Part shown: piece by piece, positions 1-10,793 of the stretch | Layout of the letters: every line of letters starts with the position of its first letter | How positions within the stretch are numbered: the first letter of the stretch is position 1 | Assembly: GCA_037924335.1 (NCBI GenBank) | Contig: JAXSMZ010000007.1 | Span: 22,463-34,016 of the forward strand | Source of the DNA: Aquificaceae bacterium | GTDB taxonomy: Bacteria; Aquificota; Aquificia; Aquificales; Aquificaceae | Length of the DNA: 11,554 bases | Reading direction: 5' to 3' | Program-made: the position numbers and the translations under genes | Notes under the pieces: generated by a model | Told to the model about the DNA's origin: nothing | The model's input: the letters and a program-made list of their open reading frames with translations, nothing else | Databases searched by the model: none

Positions 1-132
1 TACACAAGCAGGGCTTGTCCTGAATGTGGATATCAGGACAAGATGAACCGCGTAGGTGCGCGGTTCACAAGGGAGCTTATAGTCCCCTTGCCTGCTAAAC
101 CTCGTCCTGTGGAATATTTTTCTATGGGATGA
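1..132 (+). pseudogene. tnpB: 3' end of a TnpB (IS200/IS605 OrfB)-like frame entering from outside the window, truncated after the first zinc-finger half
   Basis: Frame 1 reads YTSRACPECGYQDKMNRVGARFTRELIVPLPAKPRPVEYFSMG*. YTS-x2-CPxCG...NR...F matches the TnpB zinc-ribbon start. The second CxxC and the RuvC-III D-x-NAA motif that should follow are absent. Confidence 0.75.
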
Positions 133-141
133 GGAACTATA
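7..141 (+). ncRNA. Candidate omegaRNA-like structured RNA / IS200-IS605 right end
   Basis: Closing stem 7-12/91-96 encloses hairpins 14-23/33-42, 44-52/59-67 and 68-73/85-90. A 15-bp hairpin follows at 100-114/120-134 (4 G-U pairs). Loop TATAGT (78-83) can pair with ACTATA (136-141). Confidence 0.65.
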
Positions 142-145
142 TACT
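140..145 (+). promoter_or_regulatory. Putative -10 box for a leaderless kinase transcript
   Basis: TATACT lies 7 nt upstream of the in-frame ATG at 153; no convincing -35. Confidence 0.4.
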
Positions 146-152
146 TTTGTTC

Positions 153-1181
153 ATGGGAGATTTTTCCATATTCGACGATTTTGAAGAAGAGGTGGTAGTC
201 ATAGATAAGGATTACGGGATCCTTTACGCTAACAAAAAATATCTTGAGGACTTGGGTTATAAGTCAAAAGAGGAGGTTCTTGGTAAGCCCTGCTATAAAA
301 TATCCCATTACAGGGAAGAACCATGCGATGGAGAGTGTCATCCGTGTCCTTTAAAAGAGATAGAGAGAACCGGCAAAGCAGTTAATGTTATACACACCCA
401 TTACACACACAATGGTGGAGAGTTTCCTGTTGAGATATGCGCCTTTCCTCTAAGAGATGGAAACATACTGCAGATAATAAAGGACATAAAGAGCGATAAA
501 GAGAAGTACTACCTTTTCAGTATGTCCCAGAGACTAAGCTCCATATCTTACCTTGCCTTGGGCGTTGCTCATCAGATGAGCACTCCTTTGAACGTTATAT
601 ACACATGTGTACAGCTTCTAGAAAGAGAGTACGGAACAAATGAGGAGATAAATAAAATAAAGGAAGCTATATGCGTATGCAAGAACTACGTGAGTAAGCT
701 CCTCTTTATGGTTAGAAGCCCTAAAGAAAGAAGTTTGGTAGATATAAAAAGGGCAGTCCATGATTCTGTGGAGCTTATAAACATCTATGCAAAAGAGAAA
801 GGGGTAAAGGTGGAGGAAGACTTGCAGGAATGCGGCTTCTTGCTTGGTAGTGAAGCAGATGTTAGGCATATAGCCATAAACCTTCTTACCAACGCCGTTG
901 ATGTATCCGAAGAAGGGGAAAGGGTGTTTGTAAGAACGTTTAGGGAAAACAGTTACGCAGTAATAGTAGTTGAGGATGAAGGTCCTGGAATAGAGGATGA
1001 GGATTTACACAAGATTTTCCTGCCCTTCTATCAGGGGAAGAATGCAAAGGGTGAAGGCTGCGGGCTTGGTCTCTCAATAGTCAGCAGTACGTTGAAGGAC
1101 ATGGGTGGATTGATTGAAGTCAACACAGCTGTAGGTAAAGGCTCAAAATTCACTGTTAAGCTTCCTATTTTCTCCCTTTAA
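153..1181 (+). CDS. Cytoplasmic PAS-domain sensor histidine kinase (NtrB-like)
   Basis: PAS-like N-terminus, H-box AHQMSTPL, N-box NLLTNA, G1 DEGPGI, F-box IFLPFY, G2 GCGLGL; no TM helix. Start placed at 153 because ATG 129 lies inside the 100-134 hairpin. Confidence 0.9.
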   Translation: MGDFSIFDDFEEEVVVIDKDYGILYANKKYLEDLGYKSKEEVLGKPCYKISHYREEPCDGECHPCPLKEIERTGKAVNVIHTHYTHNGGEFPVEICAFPLRDGNILQIIKDIKSDKEKYYLFSMSQRLSSISYLALGVAHQMSTPLNVIYTCVQLLEREYGTNEEINKIKEAICVCKNYVSKLLFMVRSPKERSLVDIKRAVHDSVELINIYAKEKGVKVEEDLQECGFLLGSEADVRHIAINLLTNAVDVSEEGERVFVRTFRENSYAVIVVEDEGPGIEDEDLHKIFLPFYQGKNAKGEGCGLGLSIVSSTLKDMGGLIEVNTAVGKGSKFTVKLPIFSL

Positions 1182-8515: not shown

Positions 8516-8646
8516 AACTTAATCCTACAAGCAAACTCCTTGGCATGCCAGGAGCAAGAGCTCTTGAACTATCCCTTTTAGGGTCTATGGGTATAGGTAA
8601 TATAGGGTTTAACCTGGCTGCGTCCTCTAAAGATACCAACCTTTAG
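8494..8646 (+). pseudogene. Possible N-terminal remnant of the gene divergent from lysR (or a 4-codon mini-ORF)
   Basis: The frame from the SD-led ATG reads MGHA*KV*LNPTSKLLGMPGARALELSLLGSMGIGNIGFNLAASSKDTNL*; protein-like after two in-frame TAA codons. Confidence 0.45.
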
Positions 8647-8913
8647 GCTGTGCTTTGGCAAACCTGGTATTTTGTCTCCAGGTTGTGCTATAATAGCTCT
8701 AAGGTTACAGTTTACCTTAGGATTTTCTCCGCCCTCATCGCATACTTCACGAACTATGGGGTGGTTTGGACTGCTAAAAAACTCTTCTGTCCTGAACTCT
8801 GCATTTAAAAGGGTATAACCAGCAAAGAATTCGACCTTACCCATTTTACCCTCAAGCCCTATCTCTGCACCCCTTCTCCTCGTCTTGTTCACATTTTTGA
8901 AGAACACTTGACC
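8632..8913 (-). pseudogene. Internal fragment of a TonB-dependent outer-membrane receptor
   Basis: GQVFFKNVNKTRRRGAEIGL, FAGYTLLNAEF and GDKIPGLPKHSLKVG resemble barrel strands of TonB-dependent receptors. Only about 94 codons; no signal peptide, plug or terminal Phe. Confidence 0.75.
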
Positions 8914-9119: not shown

Positions 9120-10793
9120 ATGCCAAAAAGAACGGACATGAAGAGTATACTCATAATAGGGTCTGGTCCTATAGTTATAGGTCAGGCTGCAGAGTTTGAC
9201 TACTCAGGAACTCAAGCTTGCAAAGCTCTCAAGGAGGAAGGATACAAAGTCATCTTGGTAAATTCAAACCCTGCAACCATCATGACAGACCCACATATAG
9301 CCGAAAGAACATACATAGAACCCCTAACCTTGGAAGTTTTGGAGGAGATAATAAAGGTAGAAAGGCCAGATGCTCTTTTGCCAACCTTGGGAGGACAGAC
9401 AGCTCTGAACCTTGCTGTAAAGCTCTACGAAGAGAAGGTGCTCCAAAGGTACGGAGTTGAGCTCGTGGGAGCTAGCTACGAGGCCATAAAAAAGGGTGAG
9501 GACAGGGACCTTTTCAGAAAGTCCATGCAGAAGGCTGGTTTGAAAGTTCCAGAGAGTGCTATCGTATCCTCTTTGGAGGAGGGGTTAAGCGTTATAAAGA
9601 GCATAAGCTTTCCTGCAATACTCAGACCAGCCTTCACCCTTGGTGGAACTGGTGGGTCTGTGGCTTACAACATAGAGGAGTTCAAGGAAAAGCTCCAAAC
9701 AGCTTTGAAAACCTCACCCATACATCAGGTTCTCATAGATAGGTCTCTCATAGGCTGGAAGGAGTATGAGTTTGAAGTAATAAGAGACAGGAAAGACAAT
9801 GTGATAATAGTTTGCTCCATAGAGAACTTTGACCCTATGGGTGTACATACAGGAGATTCAATAACTGTGGCTCCAGCCCAAACACTTACAGATAAGGAAT
9901 ACCAGATACTTCGTGATGCTTGCATTACTGTCATGAGGGAGATAGGCGTAGATACTGGGGGTTCCAACATACAGTTTGCCGTAAACCCAGAAAACGGAGA
10001 CTTTTATGTTATAGAGATGAACCCAAGAGTTTCTCGCTCTTCAGCCTTGGCTTCCAAAGCCACTGGTTTCCCTATAGCAAAGGTTGCGGCAAAGCTTGCC
10101 GTTGGCTACACGTTGGATGAACTGAAAAACGATATAACAAAGTACACACCTGCATCCTTTGAACCATCCATAGACTACGTAGTTGTAAAGATGCCACGCT
10201 TTGATTTTGCTAAGTTTCCAGAAACTGACACCACCTTAACAACCATGATGAAGTCAGTGGGAGAGGTCATATCAATAGGAAGGACTTTCAAAGAGGCTCT
10301 TCTAAAGGCCGTAAGGAGTTTGGAAATAGATGCCAATGGCCTTTTATCCCCATCCTTTAACCATATGCCTGATGACGTTGTCATAAAGAATCTCAGAACC
10401 CCCAACGAGCATAGGCTATGGTACATAGCGTCAGCTTTCAGGAGAAACTTTTCTGTGGATGAGGTTTACGAATATACAAAGATAGACAGGTGGTTCTTGT
10501 ATAACATAAAAGAAGTTGTGGAGTTTGAAGAGCTTTTAAGGAAGGAGGAGTTGGATAAGGAAAGGCTTTTTAGGGCTAAGGAGTTTGGATACTCAGACAA
10601 AGAAATAGCCAAACTAAAGGGTATGACGGAGGAAGAGGTCAGAAGATTAAGGTACGAGTACGGCATCTTCCCAGCTTTCAAGGGAGTAGACACATGCGCA
10701 GGTGAGTTTGTAGCCTATACTCCTTATTATTACTCTTCTTATGAAAGACCTTACTACACCGTTGAGGGGGATGTTCTGTTGGATGAAGATTGA
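9120..10793 (+). CDS. carB: Carbamoyl-phosphate synthase large chain, N-terminal half only (split CarB)
   Basis: [50 protein letters not shown], ending after [16 protein letters not shown] at 557 aa. Confidence 0.96.

What the first reader, a model, noticed from the sequence alone, without database searches (positions are those of the whole stretch)
1..141. Truncated TnpB tail doubling as an omegaRNA-like scaffold (four-way junction, long hairpin, pseudoknot)
Seen: AGCAGG/CCTGCT (7-12/91-96) closes three hairpins with almost no linker bases: CTTGTCCTGA/TCAGGACAAG (10 bp perfect), TGAACCGCG/CGCGGTTCA (9 bp perfect) and CAAGGG/CCCTTG. A 15-bp hairpin follows (100-114/120-134) whose four non-Watson-Crick pairs are all G-U on the + strand, which points to selection on a + strand RNA. 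The loop TATAGT pairs with ACTATA just 3' of that hairpin. Known: TnpB omegaRNAs overlap the tnpB 3' end and use a pseudoknot between an upstream loop and the last scaffold bases before the guide. Unusual here: the structure covers the zinc-finger codons, and the frame lacks the second CxxC and RuvC-III. Inference: a well-kept guide-RNA scaffold with a nuclease-dead TnpB derivative (TldR-like RNA-guided DNA binder), or a stand-alone scaffold used in trans.
Basis: partly seen in the sequence, partly recalled or inferred. Interest (0 to 1): 0.85.

Follow-up and report, generated by a model that had tools for sequence, protein, structure and literature searches.

The report
Gene-less mini IS607 with trimmed guide-RNA
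These 140 bases are the right end of a 300-base, gene-less miniature transposon, present nine times in this genome, that has lost its nuclease gene but kept a neatly shortened guide-RNA fold; it is a clear example of a known kind of guide-only element, not a new regulator protein.

Summary
The fold is real (z -8.2), but there is no nuclease-dead TnpB gene. Window 1-140 is the right end of a ~297-bp protein-less IS607 derivative; its left end lies ~150 bp upstream, across an assembly gap, already fused to the last tnpB codons. The genome holds 9 copies with this junction, intermediates, and pieces of 1.2-kb parents whose TnpB keeps the RuvC triad and both CxxC. A relative has this TnpB behind an IS607 serine recombinase. 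Helices P2-P5 covary in the family (15 of 50 pairs). Two deletions (54 and 15 nt) cut a long parental arm back to its base; 1.2% of random placements spare all helices (post hoc). A diverged copy in another genus keeps the new short stem by a double change. Best reading: a stand-alone omegaRNA mini-transposon served in trans by full-length TnpB and moved by TnpA. Against: no tnpA found in this genome, no RNA data. Known kind (PATE-like, stand-alone, ghost omegaRNAs); the natural trimming is the extra.

The parts
1..140 (+). Right part of a ~297-bp protein-less IS607 mini-element (putative omegaRNA scaffold). The left end is outside the window at G000:C7:22310-22397, followed by a 65-N gap.
   Evidence: ungapped copies C4:55003-55299 and C18 measure 297 bp from the left GTAT
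1..132 (+). Residual tnpB frame (first CxxC at 16-27, stop at 130-132); no N-terminal domains; not a gene
   Evidence: 10 non-synonymous vs 4 synonymous codon differences to the G087 copy
7..96 (+). P1 (7-12/91-96), closes the four-way junction; 5 pairs invariant in the family, the 6th pair (A7-T96) is seen only in G000 derivatives
14..42 (+). P2 hairpin (14-23/33-42) over the first CxxC codons
   Evidence: 3 of 10 pairs with changes on both sides
44..67 (+). P3 hairpin (44-52/59-67): the base of a ~90-nt parental arm, capped by two deletions (54 nt at 51/52, 15 nt at 59-61)
   Evidence: C51-G60 is T-A in the G087 copy
68..90 (+). P4 (nexus-like) hairpin; its loop ATAGT 79-83 is the pseudoknot partner
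   Evidence: 4 of 6 pairs with changes on both sides
79..140 (+). Predicted pseudoknot 79-83 with 136-140
   Evidence: no double change inside the family; matching loop/end changes in sister IS607 elements
100..134 (+). P5 terminal hairpin (100-114/120-134)
   Evidence: 5 of the 12 basal pairs with changes on both sides
138..140 (+). TAT core at the right junction, repeated at the left junction as G-TAT
   Evidence: 21 of 21 left ends preceded by GTAT; empty sites in 4 relatives
141..156 (+). Predicted guide (host flank); matches only the empty insertion site; length assumed
   Evidence: no GTAT-flanked match with more than 5 seed bases for this guide in G000
153..1181 (+). Host sensor histidine kinase gene whose promoter region received the insertion (start 153 by comparison with relatives; the listed ATG 129 lies inside the element); function read from sequence motifs, no family scan run

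Best explanation
A non-autonomous miniature of an IS607 tnpA-tnpB element that carries only a guide-RNA module. SHOWN: two transposon ends, 9 near-identical copies at unrelated sites, a deletion series from a 1.2-kb tnpB-only parent, IS607 ancestry, a GTAT target with a shared TAT core, and a covarying fold. INFERRED: (1) an IS607 serine recombinase supplied in trans excised and inserted it; (2) a promoter left in the left end (TTGACA-16-TATGTT) or read-through makes an RNA that runs through the right end into the flank; (3) TnpB from full-length sister copies binds this trimmed scaffold, takes the flank as guide and cuts the empty site (GTAT + guide) after excision, so that recombination restores the element. 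The deletions removed only a dispensable distal arm, and versions that kept the core fold were the ones retained. About 0.6 for the whole chain; about 0.95 for 'mini IS607, no TldR'.
For: Copies and junctions: (ungapped copies differ from the window by 2-4 bases). Parent TnpB passes NF040570 (109 vs cut-off 100 bits) with D186/E251/D335 invariant in 5 of 5. IS607: L110 has a serine-recombinase tnpA directly followed by the N-terminus of this TnpB; tnpA stubs precede it in L071/L081 (63% identity over 24 aa); complete IS607 elements L139-L141 share the left end. Covariation: 97.6% of cells paired, 15 of 50 pairs double-changed, 0 of 500 shuffles. Deletions: 236 of 20306 placements spare all helix arms; 0 of 600 random double deletions fold as well (-74.6 vs mean -55.0, sd 5.2). 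G087 copy: same deletions, z -8.47, 50 of 51 pairs kept, one double change in P3; G087 also holds a full-length TnpB. Promoter-like site 10 of 12. Precedent: PMC10055086, PMC10691335, PMC10432273 (passages).
Against: No IS607 tnpA or Y1 tnpA found in G000, although 39 contigs break at these repeats. No full-length tnpB is assembled in one piece in G000: a 5' part and a 3' part are each stop-free but differ at 12 of 254 overlapping bases. The scaffold is not more conserved than the upstream part between G000 and G087 (11 of 140 vs 12 substitutions in 126 columns), and the double change is one event at positions that also vary among parents. The deletion test is post hoc. Structure-breaking derivatives exist (L062, L063, L065; the C27:12117 copy lacks the 5' arms of P1/P2 as assembled). 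P1 never varies and the pseudoknot shows no double change in the family. The 16 rows are related and partly constrained by codons. The promoter-like site is 1 of 2 found against 0.9 expected.
Confidence: 0.6

Rival explanations
1. A plain MITE. It spreads because it keeps the two DNA ends that TnpA needs; the fold is inherited from the parent and no longer used. The tidy deletions arose mechanistically (repair or replication on folded single-stranded DNA) or by luck in one founder.
For: All minis descend from one founder, so the tidy deletions are one or two events. Equal substitution density inside and outside the scaffold. Other derivatives break the fold.
Against: Both outer breakpoints fall at the inner edge of P3 with no useful microhomology for the 54-nt deletion; 1.2% chance level; double change in the mini-specific stem; the three fold-breaking derivatives in relatives were each seen once, against 9 copies of this one.
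Confidence: 0.27
2. The working omegaRNA is only the last ~73 nt (P4 + P5 + pseudoknot). P1-P3 belong to the precursor and are trimmed off, so the four-way junction is not the protein-bound scaffold and the P3 deletions are neutral for guiding.
For: Two other G000 derivatives (C17:14311, C4:19326) keep only P4 and a shortened P5. In ISDra2 the RNA part over residues 336-373 is not needed (PMC10097598, section 8). This is compatible with use in trans; it changes the anatomy, not the class.
Against: P2 and P3 covary although they lie in zinc-finger codons; the ISXfa1 IS607 RNA is ~150 nt (PMC10711439, passage), close to this mini scaffold plus guide.
Confidence: 0.25
3. The mini RNAs are decoys: they bind TnpB but give a poorly active complex and so damp TnpB cleavage.
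For: Minis (9) are about as many as or more than parent-type left ends (6).
Against: Nothing in the core fold is broken; trimming a distal stem kept or raised ISDra2 activity in one study (PMC10097598), with mixed results in another (PMC11844463).
Confidence: 0.08
4. A TldR-like nuclease-dead TnpB with its guide RNA.
For: The residual frame is open and lacks the second CxxC and RuvC-III; the 6-, 54- and 15-nt deletions are all multiples of three.
Against: No WED/REC/RuvC-I/II: the left end is fused to the last ~70 codons before the gap; the gap is 65 N against 69 bases between the same anchors in C4. Ends are intact and the element is multi-copy. The peptide shows 10 non-synonymous vs 4 synonymous changes.
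Confidence: 0.02

Closest known systems
Stand-alone omegaRNAs and PATE-like IS200/IS605 elements (Meers et al. preprint PMC10055086; Altae-Tran et al. PMC10691335; passages read)
   Same: Protein-less element with both transposon ends and an omegaRNA, in a genome with TnpB-bearing sisters; use in trans proposed or shown there.
   Different: Ends are of the IS607 serine-recombinase type, not Y1 hairpin ends; the scaffold itself is shortened by internal deletions; a stepwise series is visible in one genome.
IS607 TnpB elements ISXfa1 (PMC10711439) and CboIStron (bioRxiv 10.1101/2023.11.20.567912); passages read
   Same: Serine-recombinase TnpA plus TnpB; no inverted repeats or target duplication; a core shared by both junctions that is part of the scaffold; 5-nt pseudoknot between a loop and the last scaffold bases.
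   Different: Core is TAT within GTAT, not GG; the pseudoknot loop sits in the third arm of a four-way junction, not in the first stem-loop; no intron; no genes.
Fanzor ghost loci of Spizellomyces punctatus (PMC10432273, passages)
   Same: Many protein-less copies with a slightly altered guide scaffold; ghost RNAs worked with the protein.
   Different: Eukaryotic, inverted-repeat ends, Fanzor1 effector.
Engineered ISDra2 Trim2 omegaRNA (PMC10097598, PMC11844463; passages)
   Same: Distal part of a long stem removed, base of the stem kept.
   Different: Here natural, larger (69 nt), in another TnpB clade; the stems are analogous, not shown homologous.
TldR (PMC10705468, passages)
   Same: Derived from tnpB with loss of C-terminal ZnF/RuvC parts; guide RNA downstream.
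   Different: TldR keeps a folded RNA-binding protein, has lost transposon ends and is tied to accessory genes; none of this holds here.

Membership tests
IS607-family non-autonomous derivative | Parent TnpB linked to a serine-recombinase TnpA | tested here: met
   L110 tnpA (hit of NF033518 over cut-off) is followed directly by this TnpB's first 26 residues; the contig ends there. tnpA stubs in L071/L081 (the stubs alone gave no IS607 HMM hit).
IS607-family non-autonomous derivative | Left end like that of autonomous IS607 elements | tested here: met
   GTATTAGAAACTAATCACT (G000) vs GTATTGAAACTAAT(C/T)AC in L139-L141.
IS607-family non-autonomous derivative | No target-site duplication; short core shared by both junctions | tested here: met
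   GTAT before 21 of 21 left ends; TAT closes 23 of 25 right-end hits (one TGT, one false hit on C3); empty sites fit one TAT. Which two bases are the crossover core is not resolved.
IS607-family non-autonomous derivative | GG core dinucleotide as in ISXfa1 and CboIStron | tested here: not met
   Core is TAT. The papers call GG typical or specific to those elements, so I do not treat it as family-defining.
IS607-family non-autonomous derivative | A TnpA available in trans | tested here: inconclusive
   0 hits in G000; fragmented assembly; 20 of 90 family genomes have one over cut-off.
Stand-alone omegaRNA | Conserved structured RNA at the right end, abutting a variable guide | tested here: met
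Stand-alone omegaRNA | Pseudoknot of a loop with the last 5 scaffold bases | tested here: inconclusive
   Always pairable but no double change in the family. Sister elements change both sides together: loop ATAGT/end ACTAT (G000 C8), AGAGT/ACTCT (L138), ATAGTC/GACTAT (L139, L140) (read by eye). A stronger rival pairing of the same 3' end with an upstream ATAGTTCC is predicted (-10.3 vs -1.6 kcal/mol as free duplexes) with one double change and one break.
Stand-alone omegaRNA | No effector gene in the element; cognate active TnpB elsewhere in the genome | tested here: inconclusive
   No gene: met. Intact TnpB: 6 parent-type left ends, stop-free 5' and 3' parts, none assembled whole.
Stand-alone omegaRNA | Expressed and bound by TnpB | not testable with these tools
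   No RNA holder was listed.
TldR | TnpB-like protein with its RNA/DNA-binding domains and a dead RuvC | tested here: not met
   Only the last ~70 codons remain.
TldR | Loss of transposon ends; stable link to accessory genes; guide matching a host target | tested here: not met
   Both ends kept, 9 unrelated sites, no GTAT-flanked target beyond chance.
IS200/IS605 PATE (strict sense) | Y1 TnpA-type ends | tested here: not met
   Ends match IS607; no Y1 tnpA in G000. Works like a PATE, is not one.

The most novel reading that the evidence does not exclude
Selection acts on the guide RNA of protein-less minis strongly enough to minimise it: the series parent, C12, C2, mini is a natural trimming experiment that yields a ~140-nt four-way-junction scaffold, fully active with a hot-spring 367-aa IS607 TnpB that reads a GTAT motif, and the mini persists across genera by borrowing both TnpA and TnpB. 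The four-way junction over zinc-finger codons would then be a scaffold type shared by two Aquificota IS607 subfamilies and not described in the papers I read.
Probability: 0.3. Interest if true: 0.6.

Novelty: new member of a known kind. Interest (0 to 1): 0.38.

Why it matters
It makes a known but little tested idea directly testable: do guide-only minis gain from TnpB in trans? Here parent, two intermediates and the mini sit in one genome, with nine different guides, a predicted GTAT motif and a cross-genus copy. If the trimmed RNA is active, it is a ready-made compact scaffold for a probably thermostable TnpB. It also removes a false lead: this is not a new TldR. One copy has landed in the promoter region of a two-component sensor next to a sigma-54-type promoter, which may alter host regulation.

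Tried and rejected
Rfam: nothing in the window or in 8 related loci except a tRNA. Y1 tnpA, resolvase and IS607 tnpA in G000: none; the one weak NF033518 hit is a MerR-like ORF after dnaJ. Viral contigs: no relative of this TnpB and no mini junction. Expression: no RNA holder listed; the one added run laid 0 contigs on the C4 copy; neither bears on expression. Mini junction in relatives: 1 of 178 genomes with the exact pattern at up to 2 mismatches (G000 only); with a degenerate pattern 3 of 90, of which G087 is a true copy and G049 looks like a chance palindrome, not followed; one search used a pattern two bases too long and is void. Guides as regulators of host sites: 23 guides scanned, best matches 10-11 seed bases with 4-5 mismatches, no control run, judged chance. 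Small peptide from the residual frame: rejected on codon changes. Solved structures: only distant Cas12f/TnpB chains through the ZnF/RuvC-III stretch. The pair count for the rival upstream pairing was not obtained as a separate count; supplies it on 8 rows. No fold or complex prediction was run. Literature searches listed no paper on an Aquificota IS607 mini; the library lacks most subscription papers and I read no supplements, where lists of stand-alone omegaRNAs could include this element.

Full report
Observation. The + strand folds at -73.4 kcal/mol, z -8.21, with 0 of 200 shuffles as stable; the - strand gives -55.7, z -6.06. Rfam has no match.

What lies upstream. Left of the gap there is no tnpB. 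There are 88 bases of a repeated left end, which stop in a junction where the left-end TTGACAC is fused to the tnpB codons for HWLY. Ungapped copies on C4 and C18 show the whole element, 297 bp from the left GTAT to the right TAT; C4 has 69 bases between the anchors that flank the 65 N. The search tool lists no withheld bases for G000, so I treat the run as an assembly gap and leave it unfilled. The mini-specific junction occurs 9 times in G000, at unrelated flanks; ungapped copies differ from the window by 2-4 bases. A TldR reading fails here.

Parent and family. G000 has 6 parent-type left ends and about ten right ends with the full zinc-finger region, mostly at contig ends. Whole parents of 1205-1224 bp occur in relatives. 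They encode a 367-aa TnpB that passes NF040570 (the G005 protein scored 91.5, under the cut-off of 100), with D186, E251 and D335 invariant in 5 of 5 (their role as the RuvC triad is recalled from TnpB motifs). Named records of close relatives are titled Aquificaceae. The family is IS607: L110 has a serine-recombinase tnpA followed at once by this TnpB's N-terminus, two loci keep a tnpA stub before it, and complete IS607 elements L139-L141 share the left end. All 21 left ends in G000 follow GTAT, and 23 of 25 right-end hits close with TAT. Empty sites in 4 of 7 genus genomes searched fit a single TAT. The element therefore ends at window 140 and the guide would start at 141. No tnpA was found in G000.

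Deletion series. G000 shows the steps: full length; C12, with the ~0.85-kb left deletion only; C2, with a further 6-nt deletion (its left junction lies in a gap); and the mini, with further 54- and 15-nt deletions. In parents P3 is the base of a ~90-nt arm over the second CxxC and RuvC-III codons. The two deletions leave its base and a 6-nt loop. Of 20306 placements of two such deletions in the 220-nt region, 236 (1.2%) spare all helix arms; 0 of 600 random pairs fold as well as the real pair. This test was designed after seeing the result and covers one founder lineage.

Covariation. On 16 rows (13 parent-type, the C2 intermediate, 2 minis) 97.6% of cells pair, and 15 of 50 pairs change on both sides, above all 500 shuffles and all slid controls. 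P2, P3, P4 and P5 carry the signal. P1 never varies. The pseudoknot has 4 invariant pairs and 1 wobble. One row (G005c) is shifted by a column in P5. The rows are kin and partly codon-bound, so this is support, not a probability. Sister IS607 elements give indirect support for the loop pseudoknot: ATAGT/ACTAT in a second G000 mini, AGAGT/ACTCT in L138, ATAGTC/GACTAT in L139-L140 (read by eye, ends placed by homology). RNAalifold prefers a rival 8-bp pairing of the same 3' end with an upstream ATAGTTCC, which in this copy would lie in the gap; it has one double change and one break.

A copy in another genus. G087:C62 holds the same mini with a lost left end. It folds at z -8.47. Of 11 differences in 140 bases, 5 are unpaired, 2 form a C-G to U-A double change next to the deletion junction, 3 are wobble-type and 1 breaks the G000-specific 7-96 pair. 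Against selection: the upstream part has a similar density of changes (12 in 126 columns), and several of the differences are also parental variants. The residual frame shows 10 non-synonymous and 4 synonymous changes, so no peptide is conserved. G087 holds a full-length TnpB.

How it most likely works. TnpA in trans moves the mini to GTAT sites. A promoter-like TTGACA-16-TATGTT across the left junction (10 of 12; 2 sites found, 0.9 expected) or read-through yields an RNA that runs into the flank. TnpB from full-length sisters binds it and cuts the empty site after excision, and recombination restores the element. This follows the model of PMC10055086 and, for IS607, bioRxiv 10.1101/2023.11.20.567912 (passages), where TnpB was equally active with the RNA in trans. 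Transcription, binding and cleavage are inferred here, not shown. Derivatives that break the fold exist (L062, L063, L065), each seen once; two G000 derivatives keep only P4 and a short P5, which leaves open that the mature RNA is just the last ~73 nt.

Comparison. PMC10055086 states that PATE elements often encode omegaRNAs to be acted on in trans. PMC10691335 says mobilised stand-alone omegaRNAs were shown to work in trans. PMC10432273 describes ghost loci whose altered RNAs were active. PMC10711439 gives the IS607 rules for core and pseudoknot. PMC10097598 (passages and section 8) and PMC11844463 (passages) cover engineered trimming. PMC10705468 defines TldR (passages). PMC11061315 and PMC10530073 were read in passages and added nothing specific. 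No supplements were read. Six earlier notes of this scan describe gene-less IS607 minis in other genomes; they are unchecked and show only that the kind recurs.

Verdict. Observation confirmed; interpretation half right. A new member of a known kind, with an unusually well documented natural trimming. Interest 0.38.

Noticed in passing
G000:C8:49769-49459 (minus; L015): A second, 311-bp gene-less mini from the sister IS607 subfamily with a ~500-aa TnpB (cf. L138). It has similar ends, a TTGACA-17-TATATT site, and also folds as a four-way junction.
   Followed up: partly
window 138-155 and G000:C7:22189-22313: The insertion splits the region just upstream of the histidine kinase gene: a TATACT box stays at the right junction, while conserved TGACA-type repeats and a divergent sigma-54-like site (TGGCAC-N5-TTGC, also in 4 relatives) stay on the left, before a flavoprotein gene resembling sulfide dehydrogenase FccB/SQR (label recalled from motifs, no family scan).
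   Followed up: partly
window 1-132; L166:1509-1715: All indels in the residual frame are multiples of three (6, 54, 15 in G000; +3 in G087), although the codon changes argue against a peptide. Unexplained; may be chance.
   Followed up: partly
G000:C17:14307-14772 and C4:19330-18952: An independent two-copy derivative with several internal deletions keeps P4 and a shortened P5 whose first pair is U-A instead of C-G.
   Followed up: no
G000 parents, e.g. L014:452-470: In several parents the 5' arm of P1 has a local rival partner (CTGCTT with AAGCAG); the 6-nt deletion of the C2 and mini forms removes it (read by eye).
   Followed up: no
G000:C4:55003 and C27:12113: Two minis sit in or beside remnants of the sister IS607 family, suggesting nested insertion.
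   Followed up: no
G000:C1, C23, C24, C25, C27, C36, C37, C39: At least three further tnpB families with right ends of the AGTTCAC/AGTTGAC type, mostly fragments, in a genome with no Y1 tnpA found.
   Followed up: no
G000:C8:4664: The right junction TAT+G supplies the ATG of what looks like a host gene whose ribosome-binding site lies left of the insertion (read by eye).
   Followed up: no
window 8578-8907 and 9120-10793: A short ORF that looks like a fragment of a TonB-dependent receptor precedes a 557-aa carbamoyl-phosphate synthetase large-subunit half (split carB; labels recalled from sequence).
   Followed up: no
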